Source: Novakomyces olei (Eukaryota). Taken from it: 64,000 nt of DNA. A program made the position numbers and the translations under genes. The notes under the pieces were generated by a model. The model did not search any database. It saw only the letters and a list, made by a program, of their open reading frames with translations, and was not told the origin of the DNA. Shown piece by piece: positions 31,604 to 58,922 of the stretch. The DNA lies in the NCBI GenBank assembly GCA_016906335.1, contig JADEYG010000007.1, forward strand, positions 1,984,001-2,048,000, given 5' to 3'. How positions within the stretch are numbered: position 1 is the stretch's first letter; each line of letters opens with the position of its first letter.

Positions 31604-33873
31604 ATGCCAGAACATTCAACTGCCTTGGATGACGATGCTCTGCAGGCCTACTTCACGCACCCACGGAGCAGCTCTTGGAGCGAAAGCAAGTCAGAAACAA
31701 ACCACAATCTGAATGGTGGAACTCTTGCTGAGAAATTTACACAATCCGATGCTATCGATTCACCAGCCGCAGAGACAGTTGTCGAAGAGCCAAAAACAAA
31801 ACTCTGTTATCGCCATCACGCTCGCTCTCGGTGTTTGAGCGCAGCAAAGACTGACGCCGATGCTATGCGGGATATACAGTCGGTAAGGTTACCATTTAAA
31901 ATTTAAAATGTTTATTCTATTTTGTGTTTTGTATCTGTTTGGAATATTTTTTGGAAATTTTTGGAATAGCTCACTGTTGGGTTGTCGAGGGTTTAGGGTT
32001 TGCTGTGACGAGATTATTGTCTTGTTTCATGTCGAATTTACTGTTTGTCTGTTTCTACTATACCGTTTCTTTTAAAAATGGATTGTTGATTTTGCTCAAA
32101 TTTGTTTTACACAAATGAATACCTTTTTGTGCTCTTTGCCTTTGCTTGTTAAAGCATAATCTAATCGAGCAGAGAATGGCAGGTTTAGCAGAGCACGAGC
32201 AGCGTGCTGTATCACAAATATGGTCGGTATTCAGTGCGGCACCGACTCAGCAACGTATGCTGATGCTAAAGGGCATTTTGTCACAGTGTTGTTTCTCGGA
32301 ACTATCATACTTATCGAACGAGGTGAACCATATGTTGCGCATCGATTTCCTTTACGCACTTCCACCAGAAATTGCCTTTAAAATTTTATTCTATTTGGAC
32401 GCCTCTAGTCTTTGTGCAGCTGCCCAAGTTTCCCGTCGCTGGAAAACTTTGGCGGACGATGACCTTGTATGGCACCGAATGTGCGAACAGCACATTGATC
32501 GAAAATGTACAAAATGCGGATGGGGTCTTCCCCTGTTAGAGCGTAGACGGTTACGAGCTTACCGCAGGAAAATGCAACAGCAGCAACAGAAATCTGATCA
32601 GAAGGCAAATGGCAAAATAATCGATTCTTGCCTATTGCTTGATCAGCCGGTCGGCCCAGCAAACAGGTCTTTCTCGGATCAGCCATCACTGCCTAGCTCT
32701 GGAGGCGAAACGACAGACCAGCCTAAATCAGGTGCACGTAGTTCCACGCTGCAGCCATCTGATGAGACTGATGCAAATGGAAAACGTAAAATGCAAGAGC
32801 GCGAAGACGATGGCTGTGGATCTCTGCCTAATGTTTCTCAAGCTTCAAGAGCCTGGAAAGACGTTTACTCTGAACGTTGTAAGATTGAGAGAAATTGGCG
32901 AAAATTAAACTATGTTAAACGAGAGTACCGTCGTCATACTGCAGCTGTTACCTGCCTTCATATTGAAGACGAGGAGCGATTTGATTCAGGTCATGCTCCT
33001 AATTCTGGTGTTATGGTATCTGGCTCATCAGATGGGACTATCCTTGTCTGGTGTATGCGTACGGGCACAGTAGTACAAACACTCAAAGGCCATACCGCTC
33101 CCGTAAGATGCCTACAGTTTGACGATTGTAAGCTCTTTTCCGGGGACGAAGAAGGTTTTATTCTTGGCTGGGATTACCATACGGGTCAGTGTATTTCCAA
33201 GTTGGAGGCTCATTCAGACGCAGTGACGGCTCTTCAGTTTGATGGCAGTATTCTCATCTCTGGATCCGCTGATAAGACTGTAAAGCTATGGGATTTTGGA
33301 GCGAAAACTTGCTGTGTCCTGCGCGGCCACACAAAGGCGGTGAATACTGTCAAATTTGATGCGTCGGCTAAAGTTGCATACTCAGGATCAGACGATTCAA
33401 CGGTACGGCTGTGGAACACTGAGACCCGTGAGTGTATTGGCACAATTGCAGCTCATGTAGGCCCCGTAGAGTCTATTGTCTTGTTGCCCTCGCGCGATGC
33501 TCCAGAACAGGGGGAGACTGATAAAAAAGATGGGAGAGTGCGATCGAGTGTGGACACAATAGCCACTTCTTCCATGGACTGTACCATAAAATGTTGGGAT
33601 GGAACCATGCAGCACTGCCGTAGGACTCTATTCGGACACATTGAGCCTGTAATTGCTCTGGCTGGTGATTCCTTACACCTTCTCTCTGCTTCCTTGGACC
33701 ATACACTAAAGCTGTGGGACGTTCAGGGCGGAGAATGTAAGCATACGCTCACTATTCCGGCCACCAATGGCACACCGACATCGATTGCTCTGTCAGATAG
33801 ACATATTGTATACGGCGACGAGGACGGACGGCTCTCCTTACTCGATTTTTCTTCCGCCGAACCGAAAAAGTGA
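31604..33873 (+). CDS. MET30: F-box/WD40 sulfur controller (Met30/Scon-2/SconB/Pof1)
   Basis: Exon 1 contains KLCYRH; QIWSVFSAAP..LKGILSQCC, F-box IDFLYALPPEI, CEQHIDRKCTKCGWGLPLL and WD40 repeats. Confidence 0.92.
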
Positions 33874-35555
33874 AACTTTGCTGGTTTTGACGGCAAGAAT
33901 CTACAGATTTCTTTTTTTTTGTAAATATTTATACGTCCCTGGTTGTACATATGTACGGTTCGTATTTAGTCCGCGAGCACAGGAGCGCAAGAGTATCTCC
34001 CTTGTTTGATACATTGTATAGTACATTAATGTTATCAGTTTTTCGTATTGCGTTTGAAATTTCCCATTCGTAATAATCAGTGCTAGGTTATTGGGGGAAT
34101 TCACTTTGCATCAGCATTGGCTGCCAGAGTGAAGAGGTGGATTGCAGTGTTCGCTAATCGAGCGCAGGCGACGATTTTGTGTACGGGTAACGAAGATTAC
34201 CTTGCAAAGTTACATTCTAATATTTATCTACTAAGGAGTTTATTGTAATATAATTCAAAACTCGACAAGAATAATATAATAAAATAATGTTAGTATAAAA
34301 TTTTTATACGATAGAGCCTCGTATCAAGTCCTTATCGCATGCCTTGCGGTGGTAGGTAGTTTTGATGATGCTCCTTCATATTAACTATATAATTAACGAT
34401 ATATAATTAACGATATATGAAAACTATATTAAGAACTAAATAACAAAATATATATGACTATGATTTCCTGGTCTTACTGTTGTCGAAATGCCGACTCTTT
34501 AGTTGTCGATGATAGCCACACCAATTTCAAACGGTGTCTAGTTTTTCAATACAACTAGCTCTACTCATTGTTAGTAAACATTCAAGGCCTTGGCCTTGAG
34601 ACGTGTATAGCCACATATCCTTTTTTCCTTAATCCGAGTCTAAACGCGTCGCAGAAAACGGGGGTACAAACCCTTTTCTCTTTCACGGGGTAGACACCCG
34701 ATAACGTCAGAGAGTTTTCAAATAATTTAAATGTCATATAGCTTAATATTAGCAGCCGTGATTAGTTCTTGTTACTGTGCTCAATAATAAACCTATTGCC
34801 ATTTAACCCTCTATTCCTGCTGAAATCATTTACCCTCCATTTGCCTGTTTACAAACTTGCTATGCTATACGTGGCCAGACCCAGCTTGAGCGCGATGCTA
34901 GCCTATATTGGCCTCTGAAACGCACGACATTGCTGCAAAAATTCAGAAAATTCCTTCTCCCTGATCGAAGATGCCCCTTGTGCGCGTGGATTCGGCCAAA
35001 AGTTTACCAATTTGTCCTAACATTTTATTCATTCTAGCCTTCAAGAGTAAAATAATCTAGCCAGTAGCAAAATGTTAATACAAATTTCTCTCCGACACCA
35101 ATAATACTTGATTATACTCGTCATTTTTTCCAAGTAATCATTCCAGCTAACCCCCCAAAATGCATATCCGAATTTCTGACGTGTACCGAAAACTCGGTTA
35201 GAGCTACATGGCTCGATACGATTACCATATTGGGCCAGTGCGCGTCTCTATAATCACAAAACGGTGATAATAGCACAAATTAATTTATTCGCGATTAGCG
35301 CGTCTGTCAATAGAGTGAAAGCGAATTAGATATATAAATTCAGAGCTGGCCATGCAAAAGATGTCCTCGTTTTTGAGAGAAAGTAAAGATCTCAAACTTG
35401 CTGGGCTTTGAGAGTAACGGGTTTGCAGAACAAACCAGTTCGCCTTCATTAAATATCACATTTACCGAGTTCAAAGTCGCGGCAGTATACGCTTTTAAGC
35501 AAGTCTTAACTTTCTATACCCATTTGGCTCTGGAAATTTCTGATTATTTTTCACT

Positions 35556-37778
35556 ATGCGCCTTTTCCCTATCGCCTCGGTGATAGCTACGGTGGCGCAG
35601 ATAGAAATCGTGCAAGAGACAGATGCGCCAGAAGCCGTCTTCATTCATGGCTTTGAGCCACCGTTGGGCCTCGGCAATAAGATCGCTGTTCGCGATACCG
35701 AAGCTTTCATTGCGGCTTTCCGTACGTCGAGTTACTCACCAGAAGCTTGCGCATACCTGTGCACACTGGCAGCCGACTGCGAATATTTCCAAGTTTGGCA
35801 GAAAAACGATATTAATCACTGCTCCATTTTCAATCGCACTATAGACAACGATTTGCTTGTTGCCGAACAGAACGTCTCGCATTCGTTCGCTTACATTGTC
35901 TCTCTCAGGGACAGTTGGAGAGAAACTGCTGCCCTACTTATACGCCATCCTGGGCGTGCTTACGTGATTTATCGGAATGGCCAATACTTGACGGATGAAA
36001 GTTCATATGTTTCGTACACTGTAGGGCTTGATGCACCTGCCACTGCACTACCGCCCTCTGTGGCATGCCCAGCTTGTGTCCTTGGCTCAAATACGGCGGT
36101 CGCAAATCAAGCTTCTGCTATTGCGAACGGACAAGCTCTTCCTACTGCGACCAGCGGGCCGAACAGTAGAACGAACAGTGAGTCGAACAGTGAGTCGAGC
36201 AGCGATTCGAACAACGGGTGGAACAGCGGGCCGAACAGTAGAACGAACAGTGAGTCGAGTAGCGGGTCGAGCAACGGATGGAACAGTGGAACGAACAGTA
36301 GAACGAACAGTGAGTCGAGAAGCGGGTCGAGCAGCGATTCGAGCAACGGATGGAACAGTGGAACGAACAGTAGAACGAACAATGAGTCGAGCAGCGGGTC
36401 GAGCAATGAATCAAGTAGATCAAGCAATTCAGATGGATCAAATAGCTCCGGTGAATCAAGGAGCCCTAATAATCAAATCAGTGTATCGTCATCGACCACC
36501 CCTTCTGCAACGTCCTCTCTTGCTAACCCAACCTCGGCTTATGCTGATTCAACGTCAGGATTTTCGTCCATGGCAGACTTGGTGGCTGCATCAACTGGAG
36601 GCAACGATGGCCAAGACAACTCTACGGTTTCAAGGCCAACTGCTTCAGCAACGAGGTCAAACTCTTTTCTATTTGGAGGGGCAAGTTGGAGTCTTTCAAG
36701 CTTGATTCAAGCAAGCAGGGGAAGCTCGCAATCGCCTGTCCCGACTACGTCATCCTCTTCTGTCATAGCGAACGCTAATGGCGCGAGTCTGTCGACAAGC
36801 TCAGGTGTGGAAACAAGTAACTCTGAGGCAAGAGGTTCCACCTCTGACACTAACACCGCATTGACCCCCACCAGCACTACCCCTACATCAACCCCCACCA
36901 GCACTACCCCCACATCAGCCCCCACCAGCACTACCCCCACATCAACCCGCACACCCAATCTTGGAACAGCGCGCAAATCTCTGCCGGGCCCTTCCAAGAA
37001 ACGTGGCCTAGCATGGTCGTTTCTCTACTCAAATTCTGATTGGTCGCTGTTCTCCGAAGCAGCAGGTGCCGGTAAGATCACGTGGGTATACAACTGGGAG
37101 CTCTGGGACTCACGACCACGCCCTAGAAATTCGGTCCCAAACATTGACAAGTTGGACTTCGTTTTGACTGTCGCGAGTGGCGCAAGGGCCGACTTAATGC
37201 TGGACAGTATAATGAAATATAGAAGAGGATGGGGCCTATCATCCAGATCTATTATGGGCTTCAATCAGCCCGACGACGACACAAAGGACAATATCACAGC
37301 CACGGAGGCGGCCCTTCTATGGAACAATTATATGGACCTGGCGCGCGAGGAGAGCAGCATCCGATGCGGAGCTCCGGCGGTTACAAACTCCGGGTGGCCG
37401 GGCAAGCAATGGTTCGCAAATTGGATCAGTGAATGTGAACAGAATTACGGCGGCTGCGCATATGACTTTATCCCGCTTCACTGGTACGGGACTAACATTG
37501 CCGATTTCCGAGAATGGGTCCGGTACTGGCAGAAGACGTACAGCCGACCCGTGTGGGTTACAGAATTTGCTTATACAAACTGGGATCCTTTAAATCAGCC
37601 GTTATTGGAAGATGTGGAACAGTTTATGACGGAGGCTCTGACCTTCCTCGACGGCAATAAGGGAGTTGAACGGTACGCTTGGTTTAGTCCTTTTTACGAG
37701 GATAGTCTAGTCGGTGCCAATAACCGTCTTTTCTGGAATGGGGAGCTCACAGATCTCGGACGGATGTACATCGGGTAG
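35556..37778 (+). CDS. Secreted GH128 (Asl1-like) beta-1,3-glucan-binding or hydrolase protein with Cys-containing N-domain and Ser/Thr linker
   Basis: Signal-like N-terminus; KRGLAW, WVYNW, GFNQPD, GAPAVT, DFIPLHWY, PVWVTEFA and VERYAWF motifs. Confidence 0.88.
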   Translation: MRLFPIASVIATVAQIEIVQETDAPEAVFIHGFEPPLGLGNKIAVRDTEAFIAAFRTSSYSPEACAYLCTLAADCEYFQVWQKNDINHCSIFNRTIDNDLLVAEQNVSHSFAYIVSLRDSWRETAALLIRHPGRAYVIYRNGQYLTDESSYVSYTVGLDAPATALPPSVACPACVLGSNTAVANQASAIANGQALPTATSGPNSRTNSESNSESSSDSNNGWNSGPNSRTNSESSSGSSNGWNSGTNSRTNSESRSGSSSDSSNGWNSGTNSRTNNESSSGSSNESSRSSNSDGSNSSGESRSPNNQISVSSSTTPSATSSLANPTSAYADSTSGFSSMADLVAASTGGNDGQDNSTVSRPTASATRSNSFLFGGASWSLSSLIQASRGSSQSPVPTTSSSSVIANANGASLSTSSGVETSNSEARGSTSDTNTALTPTSTTPTSTPTSTTPTSAPTSTTPTSTRTPNLGTARKSLPGPSKKRGLAWSFLYSNSDWSLFSEAAGAGKITWVYNWELWDSRPRPRNSVPNIDKLDFVLTVASGARADLMLDSIMKYRRGWGLSSRSIMGFNQPDDDTKDNITATEAALLWNNYMDLAREESSIRCGAPAVTNSGWPGKQWFANWISECEQNYGGCAYDFIPLHWYGTNIADFREWVRYWQKTYSRPVWVTEFAYTNWDPLNQPLLEDVEQFMTEALTFLDGNKGVERYAWFSPFYEDSLVGANNRLFWNGELTDLGRMYIG
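36153..36410 (+). repeat. Coding tandem repeats (about 60-72 bp; NSRTNSES..SNGWNSG) in the GH128 linker
   Basis: GAACAGTAGAACGAACA recurs four times with variable spacers. Confidence 0.9.
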
Positions 37779-38327
37779 GAAGGAAGAATAAAAGGTGGAA
37801 TTGATTTAATTTAAAAAACTGAAAAAAAGAGAAGGAAGAAAAAGACCAAGAAAAAAAAATAGAGAAAACTGTAAATGTATTTTGTACGTTTTCTCGCAAT
37901 GACGATTCAATAGACACGAATACTCATTGTGCCGTTTGATACATTGGTTGGGTTAATGACACGAGTCTTTGGGTACTCGAGCAGTCATTATGGGATTTTT
38001 ATTTGAAAAACTTTACTTGGAAAACCGGGATACCCAGCGCAGTTTATATAAAATAAAATATATTGATACTTTTAAACCCTTTCCTCACACATAAACCAGT
38101 AGATTTTTGTCTAAACAAAAGCGATCTGTGATCAAGACTGTTTGGCTCTACGAAATTGTAATACCACACACGATTAAACGTGTGTGTATAATTTATACAT
38201 TTTTGTTTATAAAACAAACCGCTACTTGCATCTAATCCGTATACTTTATGTATAACGATAATAAATCATTATTTGTGTGCATGGCGGCTATACGTACATT
38301 CCCGTGCGTGCAAACCCGCTGCTCCGG

Positions 38328-41300
38328 CTAGACAGACTTTGAGGCATAAATTCTCGGGGCGATATTCATCGCCATCAGCTCTTGGAACAGCAATTTCGCA
38401 GCGTACGGCAGCATTGTCTGGCTGAACCGGGTCCGATTCTGACACGCTCGGCACTCGTACGAGTTCTTCTTGTAGCTGGCGATAGCAATAAGCCCACAGA
38501 TATCGCATACAATAACCCTGTAAGCATCTGAGCAGTCGAGTAATCGCTCCCGCAGAACGGCACTGCACCCGTGCGAGATTTGGCAGTCCCTCTCCATCTC
38601 TCCGAACCGCAGCCCTCCATCACGAGACCGGCCCTCGACCGGCTGGCGTGTCAGTATTTGCACGGGGCCCCGTGCCCGTGCATGGATCTTATCATCGACC
38701 AAATGTTTCAGCCGCTGGTAGTACGTCGGCCCTAAAAACACTTGAGCCATAAGCTTACGGCCTGTATGGCCATTGTACATGACTTCAAAGCCGCGCGACT
38801 GGTACCCGTGGTGCCGCAGCAGCTGAGAGACTGCCTCGACCGTTACCTCAGTGAAGGGAGTAGCATCTCCCTCGTACCCACTGAGGGCCGATACTTTGCT
38901 CAACTGGCACTCTATCAGATGCGCTACCGTCATTCGCGATGGGATAGCGTGAGGGTTTATAATAAGATCGGGTACTGTGCCCTCCGCAGTGAAAGGCATA
39001 TCCTCGTGGCGATAGGTAATACCAATCGTTCCCTTTTGGCCGTGCCGTGAGGCAAATTTGTCACCAATCTGAGGCACTCGTGTACTGCGCACCCGCACTT
39101 TTACAAACTTTAGTCCCTCCTGGTTCGTTGTTACCATTACTTGGTCAACTATCCCGTTCTCTGTAGCCCGGAGTGGGATGGATACATCCCGCTTTGTGTG
39201 CAGACTCGTCCTTTGGCCCAACTCCTCCGCATCGGGAGCAATCGGAGCAGTTTTGCCTATAATAATATCCTCACCCGAGACACGAGTGCCGGGGGCAATC
39301 AGCCCATCGCCGTCGAGCTTGTCATACGTCCCGTGCTTCATGCGCAGAGTGCTCTGCCGCAGAGGCCGCTCAAACTCCTCCATAACCGTCATTCCAATCT
39401 TTTTTTCCTGGTCCATGTAGGAACGGTAAAACATGCTGCGGAAGAGGCCACGGTCGATACTGCTCTGGTTCATAATCATAGAGTCCTCCTGATTGTATCC
39501 AGAGTAACACAAGATTGCCACAATCGCATTCTGCCCGGCCGGCAGTTCTCGGAACCTGAGGTACTCCATCGACCGCGTTGTCGCCAGCGGCTTTTGTGGG
39601 TAGTACAGGATGTTTGCCATCGTATCCATTCGCGTCTGGTAGTTTGTCAGGAAAATTCCCATTGCCTGCTTGCCCATTGCCGACTGGTAGGTGTTGCGTG
39701 GCGACTGGTTGTGGTCGGGGAAGGGGATAATACTCGCACAAATGCCCAGAATCATGGATGGGTGAATCTCACAGTGCGTCCATATATGGGCGTTAGGGTT
39801 AACGATGGGCTTTATACGCTTGTCCAGCTGATCAAAGTCTTCCTGCACTTCCATTCCGGCCCTTATCTGCCGAGCCGTCTCCAGATCTTCTGGCGTCATT
39901 GCAATCATTACCGTCTCCTCCTCCTCTGCGTCCAAATACTCTACTAACCCTGACGCTACCAGCGAGTTCCAGCTGAACCTTTCTCCCCCGTCCACAGCGT
40001 CCACGTCCTTGTCGTCCAGTAGGCGCTGAACATGCTCCTTGCGGATCATCAGCTGTCCCCTCGACGCACTGTCCGTGTCCGTGTCCACTATAAAAAGCGG
40101 CCGGCAGATTCGGCCGGCATCAGTCAGCAGCCGCAGCTCCTTCTCCCTAATGTCCCTGACCACACTGACCTCTGCACTTATATCAAGCCGACGACGAAGG
40201 CTCCTCAGCGTCTGCACCAAGTGATCAGGGTTGCGGTGCACTCCGAGCCACACGCCATTTACAAAGATTTTAGTAGTGTTGGGAGTGGCACTGGGGTTGT
40301 AGTCCTCCAACCCCTCCATACCCCATTCCTCCAGAAACTCTACTATCGGAGCACTCGGGCTGCCTACCGAGATGTAGCTCATTAGCGCCAGGTTCTTAAC
40401 GAGCCCACACGCTTGGCCTTCCGGTGTCTCGGCCGGGCAAACAAGGCCCCAGTGCGTATTGTGCAGCTGCCGCGGTTTGGCAATTTTGCCATCTCGACCA
40501 ATCGGAGTGTTTGTACGCCGCAAATGCGAAAGAGTAGAGGCAAAGGTGTACCTGTTTAGCACTTGCGAAACACCGACTCTGGCCTGCATTGCTCTACGCT
40601 GATCGCCCCAGTTTCCGGTCGCTAAACTGTACTTCAATCCGTTCGTTATCGTGTTTGATTTTACAGCCAAACTAAGGTTAAACTCCCGGTTGGTCTCCAC
40701 ACACTTTTGCATGTACTTGTATACATCTTTTGTCAATTTTCTAAAGAGCATTCGGAAGAGCGATGCCAGTAAAGGACCCGCCAAATCAAGTCGCTTTTTT
40801 CCAAAATGATCTCGATCATCGGGATCCCTTCGCTCAAGCGCACAGAGCAGCATTCGATGAACCATGTAACCAAGGAAAAAGGCTTTCCGTGTTTCATAAC
40901 CCTCTGATGTTGTTATATGAGGCAGCAGCTCTTTTTGTAGGATATCATTGGCATAGCGTAACCGTTTCTCCCTCACGATACCCGTTGTACTTCCACGTTT
41001 GCCTATAAAGTCAAGAGCAACTGATTTCTCTTGGATAACAAAGGCTTCCTCGATACACGGCTTCAACATATCCAGCATCTGCATATCCGAAGAATCGTAG
41101 CAAATATGCTCTAAAATGTCCCGGTCAGGAACGACGCCGAGCGCCCGGAACACGATAACGATAGGAATATCGTTACGAATATAGGGCAAAGTTGCCCTTA
41201 TAGACCCCGTTCCAAAACCCGTATCAGCACTGCGATTAAATAATTTTATTTGTAAAGAAGAGATCAGTTTAGATCCCTTTTCCATAGCAGATCGGATCTC

Positions 41301-42081
41301 TGCGACGTAAGAGACGGGTGAAGGTGCCATCTTTCTAAACACCTGTACCGTATTTGCCGCAGATCTTTCTTGTGCAATAATAACCTTCTCCGATCCATTT
41401 ATCACGAAATAGCCACCTTGATCATAGGGGCACTCGTTGAGCTCGGTTAACTCGGCTTCTGATAGTCCGTTGAGTGTGCAAAAGGTACTCTTCAACATAA
41501 TCGGTATCTTGCCGATAAAAACTTTACTCGGCTCACCGTCCTCCTCTTCCACCTGCCAGTCCTCCTCACCAACATCGGCATTAGGGCTAACATTGCGTAG
41601 TACCTTCTTTTTCATGTCCACATAAAGCGGACTGGAATAAGTCAAATTACGTAGTCGCGCTTCCTGTGGAAACATATGAGACGTGCTTCCATCCGCTTCT
41701 GTCATGGTCGGCCGCGAAAGATAAATTTGACCAAAATTTATCTCATACCGCCTCGTATAGTCATTGTCAGAATCCGTATGCTGAGCTGGTTGGTCCAAAG
41801 TAAGCGTCGGATCCTCGTCTACCAGCTCTTGCATAGAATTTTGCACGAAATCATCAAACGAGTCCAGCTGACCACGCACGAGGGACTGTAGAGTGTTAGG
41901 ATCGATAAAGATGAGTTGGAAAAGAGCGGAAAAGAATAGGAAAAAACGACAAGACTAGGGCGGGTGGCCTTACCATCTCATCGAAAAACGAAGTGATCAC
42001 GGTCCAGCAGTCTTCCTGTGTGATTTCTTCACCAAACTCAGCGCCATCGCCCATATACTGGTCGACTGCCGTGTCTGCCAT
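38328..42081 (-). CDS. RPB2: RNA polymerase II second-largest subunit
   Basis: [31 protein letters not shown] and other conserved blocks; exon 1 42081-41974 ([14 protein letters not shown]), intron to 41887. Confidence 0.99.
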
Positions 42082-56962: not shown

Positions 56963-58922
56963 TCAATCCCACGCAAAACCTAAATTTTCACGATTATCAT
57001 CAAACACACGAGCGTATTCCAGTAAAAGCAGCAAAACGTAAGACTCCATATCTTGTCGTCGCAGAGTAAGAGATGCCCATTGTTGACCTGCTTCTGCTAT
57101 ACTTTGAGCCAGTTCATCGTGCCCGTCTAAGCCTTTAACTCCTGCCTCCTTGTAGCCAATGAAGAACGCTAAAATAGAGTGTAATTCATCGTAGCGCGTA
57201 TCAAGCGGAACAAAATGATACCAAGGAACAAGACGGGAATCGTGCCATTCATTGTACAAAGTCTGTTTTATAGCCAAACTTTTAGAGAACTGGAAGGCTC
57301 GAAATCGCGCAGAGAACGATTGCCCGTCTACGTCGACAAGGTACTTGTACTCAAACTGGCCAGCCATGGTTACAGATGGCACAATACTAAACTCTTGTCT
57401 AAGAGCATCACAACCCGTCCCGCACAGCGAAATTTCGGTAAAACCAACATTCGAATGGGCATCGAGAAACTGGGAAAAATTGCAGCGCTGAACCTCATAA
57501 GGCTGCAGGGAATCATGCGTATAATCTGTCAGCAGTGTTATATTTGCCGTATCGATTTTAGAGGAATTCAGCATTGAAACGAGACGGTTACGCTGCATGC
57601 CGCGCCAATTATCTGGTGTGTAGTATCCGCCACTCGTGACTCCACGCCAGAAAATATTGTTTTGCTTTTCGTGCCACGCAACGTCTTTTTCAGGTGTGTA
57701 ATCGTACCTTTCATCGTTTCTGTAGTACATTGTTCTGTAATTAGAATGAAGTTTTATAAATAAATATATAAAATAAATAAATAAGACCTTACGCAGGAAA
57801 CACAATGTCATTGTTTACGGATAGCTTGCATTCGCTAAACACAGGAACAAACTCGTGACTGGTCACGAGGGAGTTTGGCCCAATCAAAGCTCCATGTAGG
57901 TATTGAACGTCCGGCCGCTTGCATAAATCCAGAGCAGAAGACATATTACTGACAAAATTGCCAGGTTGCACGTTTTCGGCATAGAAATAATCTTCTTTCC
58001 CCGTCCACGCCGGAGAATCAGGAGCACAGCATTGCTTTATAGCTTGGAAGCAAGGCTTTCCTCCATAATTTGTCCATTTCACATCAGTATCATCCTCACT
58101 CAGCTCGTTTTGATAAGGACTAAAGCCCGCAACTGGTTCTTTTGCAACCTTTTTATTCTTTGATTCAGCCGCTATAGCTTCTGCGACCTTTTCAAAGGGC
58201 ACCATAACCCTCGGCTCATCAAACTGATTCACGTTTATATCCATGTCCGGTAGCAAATGTATAAAGTTTTGTAAAAGGTTGTTTAATGCTCCGCCACGAG
58301 CATTTTCGTGACTAAGCACACTTTTGCCATTACGAACCTGTATTTGACAAATATCCGGATTGAACTTCAATCTTTGGGCTCGTTTACGGATTTCCCGTGG
58401 TTCCAAGGCCCAGTAAGGACGTAAATCGCGGTTAACTTGACTAAAAATATCGGTAAAAACGGCACCGTTGTCCGTTGAAAACGTCCACCACTCATCAAAA
58501 CGTGGAGGCGGAAGACGACCTTGTTGCTCTATGTATCGTTTGACTGCTTGCCGAAGGCTTCGTGGCTGATTTGCCCGTAAATCAAAGGCTTTGCGCTGAG
58601 CTTCGCCGATAAGAGCGGTAATAGGATGAAGATCAAAAGACGGCTTGCGCTGGTGTATTAGTACATTGAAAAGAGCTTGAAGGAAATGTAGTAAAAACAT
58701 CGCTAAAAACAAATAAACTAGACAAACGAAAAGCGAAACAGTAGTGATCTTTTTGAACGATGGTACCTCTTGTGCTCTGTCTCCCGCTGGCCCTAGCTTG
58801 AACTTCTCGTGTTGAGCAGGTGGAAATTTAATGTCGCTATAATAGTAGGCGCATGAGAAAGTTAGAGCAAATAACAGAGCTGCAAAAAAGGCAATGGTGT
58901 ATGCCCGCGCTCGGCGGATCAT
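56963..58922 (-). CDS. Glycosyltransferase family 90 (CAP10/Cxt1-like beta-1,2-xylosyltransferase)
   Basis: N-terminal TM anchor; GRLPPPRFDEW, LPDMD..VN.FDEPRV, FWRG.TSGG, YKYLVDVDG.SFSARF and WHDSRLVPW.HFVP; two introns. Confidence 0.88.

What the first reader, a model, noticed from the sequence alone, without database searches (positions are those of the whole stretch)
35556..37778. Secreted GH128 with catalytic acid/base Glu replaced by Gln: possible non-catalytic beta-glucan-binding protein
Seen: the GH128 motif normally read as GFNEPD is GFNQPD here (CAG at 37266-37268), while the nucleophile in WVTEF is intact. The ORF is uninterrupted and has a signal peptide, a Cys-containing PAN/apple-like N-domain (CAYLC...CEYFQ...CSIF) and a long S/T/N repeat stalk. 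Known: clan GH-A enzymes use the NE glutamate as acid/base, and E-to-Q usually cripples hydrolysis but keeps binding. Inference: a lectin or glucan-masking cell-wall or effector protein, or an enzyme with altered chemistry.
Basis: partly seen in the sequence, partly recalled or inferred. Interest (0 to 1): 0.72.

Follow-up and report, generated by a model that had tools for sequence, protein, structure and literature searches.

The report
Disarmed fungal glucanase, fast-evolving triplicate
A fungus carries three recent copies of a glucan-cutting enzyme gene whose working end is diverging unusually fast, and this copy has lost a key catalytic residue, so it probably grips glucan or distracts an inhibitor instead of cutting.

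Summary
ORF 35556-37778 encodes a 740-aa protein with a GH128 domain whose acid/base position is Gln (CAG, 37266-37268); the nucleophile E670 is intact. Contigs from two runs of two studies show the same codon. E fills this column in 152 of 156 homologous domains, and none pairs Q with an intact nucleophile. Both daughters keep E; one instead has His at the conserved nucleophile-assisting Tyr, so only one copy has the full catalytic set. N-domains and flanks differ by about 3-4%, but the GH128 domains share only 62-67% of residues, with changes enriched in catalytic-face loops and a positive-selection site class that survives multi-hit and hot-spot controls. The same engineered change in a bacterial GH128 gives an inactive protein that still binds oligosaccharides. 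Best reading: a hydrolysis-crippled glucan-binding or decoy paralogue, like MpChi or PsXLP1. Expression, secretion, binding and lifestyle are not shown, and a recent loss of function cannot be excluded. Non-catalytic GH128s already exist (subgroup VII), so this is a new variant of a known kind.

The parts
35556..37778 (+). ORF, 740 aa: signal-peptide-like N-terminus, Cys-containing N-domain, Ser/Thr/Asn stalk, C-terminal GH128 domain; no C-terminal hydrophobic tail
35556..35612 (+). Signal-peptide-like segment (residues 1-19); cleavage region less canonical than in the C12 paralogue
   Evidence: read from sequence; no predictor run
35619..35915 (+). Probable PAN/apple-like domain (residues 22-120), lead only
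   Evidence: Atlas feature score 0.91 to a PAN cluster, 0.85-0.89; no Pfam/PDB/sequence hit
36148..36406 (+). Ser/Asn/Gly tandem repeats (12-, 60-, 72-nt periods), differing in copy number between paralogues
36407..36863 (+). Ser/Thr-rich stalk, 87-92% identical between paralogues over residues 305-436
36864..36953 (+). Pro/Thr/Ser repeats (27-nt period), longer in both paralogues
37005..37769 (+). GH128 (PF11790) barrel, residues 484-738; 62-67% identical to its two paralogues
37266..37268 (+). CAG, Gln571 at the acid/base position after strand 4 (GAG in both paralogues)
37284..37286 (+). AAG, Lys577 at a column that is Gln in 122 of 149 homologous domains and in both paralogues (-2 subsite by motif spacing with CBM6E Q174)
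37479..37487 (+). H642-W643-Y644, intact here; the C7 paralogue has His at the Tyr position (Tyr in 160 of 164 domains)
37563..37565 (+). GAA, Glu670, nucleophile position in strand 7, intact
33799..38138 (+). Block duplicated to G000:C7 near 2.39 Mb (L009); it begins in the last 25 codons of the window's F-box/WD40 gene
34746..39692 (+). Block duplicated, with gaps, to G000:C12 near 1.277 Mb (L008); it carries broken pieces of the window's RPB2 gene
32176..33873 (+). Left neighbour, F-box/WD40 gene; marks this locus as the parent
38328..41834 (-). Right neighbour, RPB2; marks this locus as the parent and places the organism near fission-yeast-type fungi

Best explanation
A hydrolysis-crippled GH128 paralogue that is still under selection as a binding surface. 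An ancestral gene at this locus (N-domain, stalk, active GH128) was copied twice (shown). The three GH128 domains then diversified under positive selection, mostly around the cleft (shown statistically, three sequences). The parental copy changed the acid/base Glu to Gln by one base (shown; direction from both daughters and two outgroups). Without the acid it cannot protonate the leaving sugar, so glucan hydrolysis should fall to a trace (inferred from clan GH-A chemistry and the CBM6E mutant). The folded barrel and intact -1 subsite should still hold a beta-1,3-glucan end or oligomer, displayed on a glycosylated stalk outside the cell (inferred). Its most likely jobs are to cover or sequester wall glucan, or to act as a decoy for a protein that targets the active copy (inferred by analogy; the two are not separated).
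For: Codon real in two studies. E in 152 of 156 domains; 0 of 156 have Q with an intact nucleophile. Model pLDDT 93.6, pTM 0.92, best matches all GH128, Z 24-30. Engineered E168Q GH128 is inactive and binds oligosaccharides. Non-coding upstream DNA differs 3.6% over 1755 nt and four-fold sites in the domain 2/77 to 4/79, while codon positions 1 and 2 differ at 51-57 of 256-259. M2a vs M1a LRT 46; 20 with multi-base changes allowed or indel-flanking codons also removed; 12 against a hot-spot null, reached by 0 of 235 simulations. Variable sites 53 of 82 in catalytic-face loops vs 66 of 171 elsewhere, p 1.5e-4. Frame open although 55-85 random substitutions give a stop in 93-98% of simulations. 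Gln is the shape-keeping one of eight possible non-synonymous single-base outcomes and is a transversion (arithmetic). A second copy independently lacks the nucleophile-assisting Tyr. Natural precedents: MpChi E167Q, MrChi D135N, PsXLP1.
Against: The time of the change on the window branch is unknown, so selection on the domain may predate it. Site 571 has no positive-selection signal (posterior 0.13). The window branch has 5 lineage-specific changes at family-conserved columns against 3 and 1 (p 0.27), which could be early decay. K577 and loss of the Trp at column 540 (absent in all three copies and in both closest outgroups) may weaken binding. Synonymous change in the domain is about twice that of N-domain plus stalk (13/121 vs 13/276, p 0.045) and whole-domain omega above 1 loses significance with multi-base changes (p 0.08-0.11). 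The signal peptide is less canonical than in the C12 copy. The CBM6E mutant may keep residual cleavage at high concentration. No evidence that the organism has a host.
Confidence: 0.5

Rival explanations
1. Incipient loss of function. The three copies diversified as active glucanases; the parental copy then lost its acid/base residue recently because sister copies cover the function, and it is now drifting.
For: One transversion is enough. Four other long or Asl1-like GH128 genes with E remain among 7 in the genome. More changes at conserved columns on this branch, 5 vs 3 and 1, not significant. N-domain omega is about 1. Less canonical signal peptide.
Against: The substitution is the isosteric one; it stands in two studies whose contigs differ by one base nearby; the frame, nucleophile, -1 subsite and 1.75 kb of upstream DNA are kept; a second copy has its own catalytic-centre change.
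Confidence: 0.3
2. Altered chemistry. The intact nucleophile still attacks substrates with good leaving groups or is helped by an outside base or another acid, as in plant myrosinase (GH1, clan GH-A, natural Gln at the acid/base site; recalled), giving a slow hydrolase or transglycosylase.
For: E670, Y644, H642, N570 all kept. Acids D573-D575 and a copy-specific D578 lie in the same loop. Possible residual cleavage by CBM6E E168Q.
Against: D573 is the normal family residue (107 of 156), D574-D575 are also in the C7 paralogue that keeps E, and position 574 matches a +1 stacking residue in CBM6E. No activated natural substrate is known for GH128 (own knowledge). Distances could not be measured because model coordinates are not provided.
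Confidence: 0.12
3. The cleft has been repurposed for a different ligand (another glycan or a protein, as in an adhesin or recognition protein), and glucan binding is gone; the Gln is a by-product.
For: About a quarter of sites fall in a class with omega 4-10; several fast sites lie on helices and away from the cleft. Stalk plus PAN-like domain resembles adhesin design (inference).
Against: The -1 subsite residues and strands are nearly invariant across copies (9 of 47 strand sites vary), as expected if a glucose still sits there.
Confidence: 0.07
4. Assembly or sequencing error, or a mis-joined allele.
For: X1 may be the source of the assembly and X2 has low depth. Only contigs, not raw reads, were available.
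Against: Two studies agree at the codon; paralogue letters appear on separate contigs at the same depth (1100 vs 1026); the three loci have different neighbours.
Confidence: 0.01

Closest known systems
GH128 beta-1,3-glucanases (clan GH-A; PF11790), structurally nearest AnGH128_VI (6ub8) and BgGH128_III (6ub0, 6uay)
   Same: Fold (Z 28.4-29.6, rmsd 1.6-1.7 A over 221-233 residues), N-x-P and T-E motifs, -1 subsite residues.
   Different: Acid/base is Gln; Lys at the conserved Gln column; only 24-31% identity, so no subgroup assignment; long stalk and Cys-rich N-domain not found in searched proteins.
GH128 subgroup VII oligosaccharide-binding proteins (CnGH128_VII 6ubc, TgGH128_VII 6ubd)
   Same: GH128 fold used for binding, by the PDB titles.
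   Different: They are the most distant GH128 structures (Z 24.4 and 23.9), so this is a separate origin. How subgroup VII lost activity was not checked; the source paper was not available.
CBM6E E168Q (8j3y), engineered GH128 mutant
   Same: Same substitution at the same N-E position; inactive and ligand-bound (PMC10956234 passages).
   Different: Man-made, bacterial, otherwise intact cleft.
MpChi and MrChi, inactive GH18 chitinase-like effectors of Moniliophthora
   Same: Natural Glu-to-Gln at the catalytic acid plus a second pocket change; independent crippling of paralogues; binding kept (PMC8960721 section read).
   Different: Different family, fold chemistry and ligand (chitin); expression and immune suppression shown there, not here.
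PsXLP1/PsXEG1 paralogous decoy pair of Phytophthora (GH12)
   Same: Inactive paralogue about 67% identical to an active enzyme; positive selection on the pair (PMC8960721 passage, PMC12003678 abstract).
   Different: XLP1 loses its catalytic Glu by truncation; a host inhibitor is known there, none here.
Schizosaccharomyces Asl1 cell-wall protein
   Same: Ser/Thr-rich stalk followed by a C-terminal GH128 domain.
   Different: Not the orthologue: two other G000 genes (L001, L002) group with Asl1; the three long copies form their own clade with unnamed P0010 and P0011 (quick tree). Asl1 keeps E.
CgEC124, GH128 effector of Colletotrichum graminicola
   Same: Secreted fungal GH128 that suppresses a glucan-induced ROS burst (PMC11046878 abstract and passages).
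   Different: Enzymatically active, 325 aa; sequence relation to this protein not tested.

Membership tests
GH128 (sequence and fold family) | Profile match above the curated cut-off | tested here: met
   PF11790 176.7 bits vs cut-off 21, positions 1-237 of 237
GH128 (sequence and fold family) | Minimal (alpha/beta) barrel matching solved GH128 structures | tested here: met
   pLDDT 93.6; the top 21 entries are all GH128, Z 23.9-29.6, next family 20.3
Active GH128 / clan GH-A retaining hydrolase | Nucleophile Glu on strand 7 | tested here: met
   E670 aligns with 6ufl E199; E in 161 of 164 domains
Active GH128 / clan GH-A retaining hydrolase | Acid/base Glu in the N-E-P motif after strand 4 | tested here: not met
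   Q571
Active GH128 / clan GH-A retaining hydrolase | No substitute acid at the acid/base position | tested here: inconclusive
   Sequence comparison only; model coordinates not available for distances
Active GH128 / clan GH-A retaining hydrolase | Hydrolysis of beta-1,3-glucan | not testable with these tools
   needs assay
GH128 subgroup VII | Closest by sequence or structure to 6ubc/6ubd | tested here: not met
   They rank last among GH128 structures and 14th-15th of 16 sequences
GH128 subgroup VII | Binds oligosaccharides without hydrolysis | not testable with these tools
   needs assay
Asl1 orthologues | Groups with Schizosaccharomyces Asl1 in a tree | tested here: not met
   L001 and L002 group with P0022/P0024 (clade support 98); the window gene lies in another clade (99). 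Quick tree of 67 rows, SH-aLRT only
PAN/apple domain | Profile or fold match with the conserved Cys pattern | tested here: inconclusive
   Atlas 0.91 with 166 shared features; no Pfam hit; domain not folded
MAMP-sequestering pseudoenzyme effectors (MpChi type) | Catalytic residue lost, fold kept | tested here: met
MAMP-sequestering pseudoenzyme effectors (MpChi type) | Secreted, expressed in a host, binds ligand, suppresses immunity | not testable with these tools
   No RNA run listed, no host known, no assay
Paralogous decoy (XLP1 type) | Inactive paralogue beside an active one, under positive selection | tested here: met
   activity of the C12 copy is inferred from its intact residues
Paralogous decoy (XLP1 type) | Binds an inhibitor of the active paralogue | not testable with these tools
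   No candidate inhibitor known

The most novel reading that the evidence does not exclude
The three copies are an arms-race module: one active beta-1,3-glucanase and two paralogues crippled independently at different catalytic-centre residues, all diversifying at the cleft, with the crippled copies sequestering glucan fragments or absorbing an inhibitor or receptor aimed at the active one. It would be a beta-glucan counterpart of MpChi and XLP1 built on GH128, caught just after it arose, in an early-branching ascomycete.
Probability: 0.25. Interest if true: 0.75.

Novelty: new variant of a known kind. Interest (0 to 1): 0.52.

Why it matters
It is a natural experiment in how an enzyme becomes a binding protein: three genes almost identical outside one domain, with one full, one Tyr-less and one acid-less catalytic centre, can be assayed side by side. 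Strong positive selection on a fungal glucanase cleft points to an unknown opposing molecule (inhibitor, receptor or changing glycan). If binding is kept, it adds a GH128 route to glucan masking and a natural glucan probe. If not, it is a well-dated case of duplicate decay.

Tried and rejected
Assembly error: rejected. No RNA holder listed; this says nothing on expression. Runs X3 and X4 gave no cover. Single-sequence fold of the domain was poor (pLDDT 44) and was replaced by an alignment-based fold; the N-domain was therefore not folded. N-domain searches found nothing: 0 of 1004 and 0 of 139 candidates at E<=10 (lengths 407-1295 and 88-282 only), no PDB sequence, no Pfam. The domain search covered only proteins of 147-469 aa and gave 7 hits. 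IQ-TREE runs did not print omega, so codon models were written directly. A divergent donor or plain hot spot as the sole cause of divergence: disfavoured by four-fold sites and the hot-spot null, not fully excluded. Targeted base-specific mutagenesis: no base bias, 0.21-0.27 per base. The careful tree did not finish; the quick tree is used. A regex tally of catalytic residues in 80 bacterial loci was crude and is not used as evidence. The primary GH128 subgroup paper was not held; searches GH128 + subgroup VII (0 papers), subgroup protein names (1 paper), GH128 + catalytic (40 of 76 listed), GH128 + non-catalytic (11 listed) and family identifiers (11) showed no natural acid/base-Gln GH128 in the listings; only the papers cited were opened, no supplements were read, and subscription papers are not covered. 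A search for natural Gln acid/base enzymes returned one irrelevant review, so myrosinase is recalled. Earlier scan findings: nothing in four look-ups.

Full report
Observation. Window 35556-37778 (+) is one open frame of 740 codons. Pfam PF11790 covers residues 484-738 (E 7.4e-52). The motif after strand 4 is GFNQPD, with CAG at 37266-37268 (Q571); the strand-7 motif WVTEF keeps E670. In alignments to solved structures Q571 falls on the residue changed to Ala in 6uat (titled E102A) and E670 on the residue changed to Gln in 6ufl (titled E199Q). That the strand-4 Glu is the acid/base and the strand-7 Glu the nucleophile is established for clan GH-A (own knowledge). An alignment-based model (121 sequences, pLDDT 93.6, pTM 0.92) puts Q571 just after strand 4 and E670 in strand 7; its top 21 structural matches are all GH128, Z 23.9-29.6.

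The codon is real. Contigs of run X1 (703 nt, depth 1026) and of run X2 from another study (401 nt, depth 4.7) span it with no other letter; two more runs gave no cover. X1 may be the source of the assembly. X2 differs by one base in a neighbouring contig, which suggests another genotype. These are assembled contigs, not raw reads.

It is rare. I examined 157 homologous proteins (the best 150 of 2867 representatives, plus 7), giving 164 domains. The acid/base column is E in 152 of the 156 with a residue; the single Q is in a repeat that has also lost its nucleophile; none has Q with an intact nucleophile. This is a small part of the family.

Context. The window holds fungal housekeeping genes. 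RPB2 scores best against 3h0g (2304 bits against 1984 and 1900; that 3h0g is fission yeast is recalled), and named GH128 homologues include Schizosaccharomyces Asl1 and a Saitoella protein, so the organism is probably a Taphrinomycotina fungus. Its lifestyle is unknown. The genome has 7 GH128 matches: two group with Asl1, two are bacterial-like, and three share this architecture: the window gene, L009:3657-5978 (C7, 773 aa) and L008:5433-7823 (C12, 796 aa). The three form a clade with two unnamed proteins that keep E (quick tree, 67 rows).

History. The C7 copy begins inside the last codons of the window's F-box/WD40 gene, and the C12 copy carries broken pieces of the window's RPB2. So this locus is the parent of both. 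Both daughters have GAG, so the change to CAG arose here after copying, by one transversion (parsimony). The C7 copy has His in place of the Tyr of the H-W-Y motif (Tyr in 160 of 164 domains), which PMC10956234 describes as activating the nucleophile. The window copy also has Lys at a Gln column (122 of 149) that matches a -2 subsite contact by motif spacing. Only the C12 copy keeps the full set.

Selection. The first 200 residues are 91-95% identical between copies, the stalk 87-92%, the GH128 domains 62-67%. Upstream non-coding DNA differs 3.6% over 1755 nt between window and C7. Four-fold sites in the domain differ at 2 of 77 to 4 of 79, like the N-domain (3 of about 100), while first and second codon positions differ at 51-57 of 256-259 (four-fold sites are counted only where the first two bases agree, which favours conserved stretches). 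Codon models on the three sequences give omega 1.67 overall and a class of 23% of sites near omega 10 (M2a vs M1a LRT 46). With double and triple changes allowed the LRT is 20, also after removing 32 indel-flanking codons, though overall omega above 1 is then not significant (p 0.08-0.11). Against a null with a fast class at omega up to 1 the LRT is 12, fast-class omega 3.6, and 0 of 235 simulations reach it. Variable sites are 53 of 82 in loops on the catalytic face and 66 of 171 elsewhere (p 1.5e-4). Against this: synonymous change in the domain is about double that of N-domain plus stalk (13 of 121 vs 13 of 276, p 0.045) and clusters beside variable codons (11 of 72 vs 2 of 49, p 0.07), so clustered mutation or conversion of the N-terminal half contributes. 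The N-domain shows omega near 1 on few changes. Three sequences is a small sample, and site 571 itself has no signal (posterior 0.13).

Mechanism. Without the acid/base the leaving sugar is not protonated, so hydrolysis of plain glucan should drop to a trace (established chemistry). The same change made in the GH128 CBM6E (N167-Q168) is described as an inactive mutant, bound oligosaccharides across subsites -4 to +5 with the Gln contacting -1 and +1, and possibly cleaved substrate slowly in the crystal (PMC10956234, passages and Background read). The matching -1 residues N570, H642, Y644, E670 and F710 are kept here. No copy-specific acid clearly replaces E571: D573 is the family residue, D574-D575 occur in the C7 copy that keeps E, and D578 is the only new acid in that loop; distances could not be measured. 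The stalk is 32% Ser and 14% Thr and the protein has 7 N-glycosylation sequons, and there is no C-terminal hydrophobic tail, so if secreted the domain would be displayed or released, not GPI-anchored (inference). The signal peptide was not predicted by a tool and is less canonical than in the C12 copy. The N-domain resembles PAN/apple only by language-model features (0.91; 0.85-0.89).

Best reading (0.5): a crippled paralogue kept as a glucan-binding or decoy surface. Main rival (0.3): the enzymes diversified while active and this copy lost function recently; the data cannot time the change. An open frame after so many substitutions (stop in 93-98% of neutral simulations) shows the domain was under constraint for most of the branch, not that it still is. 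Altered chemistry, as in myrosinase (recalled), 0.12; a new ligand 0.07; error 0.01.

Known relatives. It is a GH128 by sequence and fold but fails the acid/base test for an active member. PDB titles call subgroup VII proteins oligosaccharide-binding, so non-catalytic GH128s are known; they are the most distant GH128 structures, so this is a separate origin. It works, by hypothesis, like MpChi (natural E167Q, binds chitin, suppresses immunity; PMC8960721 section read; PMC8364246 and PMC12028287 passages) or PsXLP1 (inactive paralogue, 67% identical, decoy; PMC8960721 passage; positive selection, PMC12003678 abstract). An active GH128 effector exists in Colletotrichum (PMC11046878 abstract and passages). 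SUN proteins are another glucan-binding wall family (PMC13251364 abstract). My searches listed no natural acid/base-Gln GH128, but the primary family paper was not held and no supplements were read.

Verdict. Real feature, new variant of a known kind. A lone Glu-to-Gln in a recent duplicate would be modest; the parent-and-daughters history, two separate catalytic-centre changes and strong selection on the cleft make it a good, directly testable case. Interest 0.52.

Noticed in passing
L006:1495-2304 (-) and L007:1495-2262 (-), G000:C1: Two short GH128 genes without a stalk that fall far from all other rows of the tree. L007 is 48-59% identical to bacterial proteins in the 80 loci kept of 88, a candidate transfer from bacteria; both keep the two catalytic Glu.
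   Followed up: partly
L006:625-1191 (+): A 189-aa ORF next to the bacterial-like GH128 with no Pfam match; it looks by eye like a small beta-rich glycan-binding or thaumatin-like protein and may have come with it.
   Followed up: partly
L008:4139-4882: Broken, internally deleted RPB2 fragments with stops, 88-98% identical in protein to the window's RPB2, carried along with the C12 duplicate.
   Followed up: yes
L009:3657-5978 (-): The C7 paralogue has His at the near-invariant Tyr of H-W-Y and lacks two residues after the N-E-P loop; it deserves the same assays as the window copy.
   Followed up: partly
window 56963-58922 (-): Two overlapping ORFs (56963-57811 and 57789-58922) both match glycosyltransferase family 90, the second weakly; probably one gene split by an intron or frameshift.
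   Followed up: no
L012:1358-1786: A long 9-base-period tandem array reading as Cys-Ile-Tyr or Leu-Tyr-Leu repeats, a few kb from the C7 paralogue.
   Followed up: no
P0107, P0015, P0059, P0122, P0061: Other homologous domains, mostly in multi-domain proteins, lack one or both catalytic Glu (Lys, Arg, Gln, Ala or Asp instead), so crippled GH128 domains have arisen elsewhere too.
   Followed up: no
window 36031-36705 (+, other frame): A 224-codon alternative frame over the repeat stalk, also open in the C12 copy; probably a by-product of the repeats.
   Followed up: no
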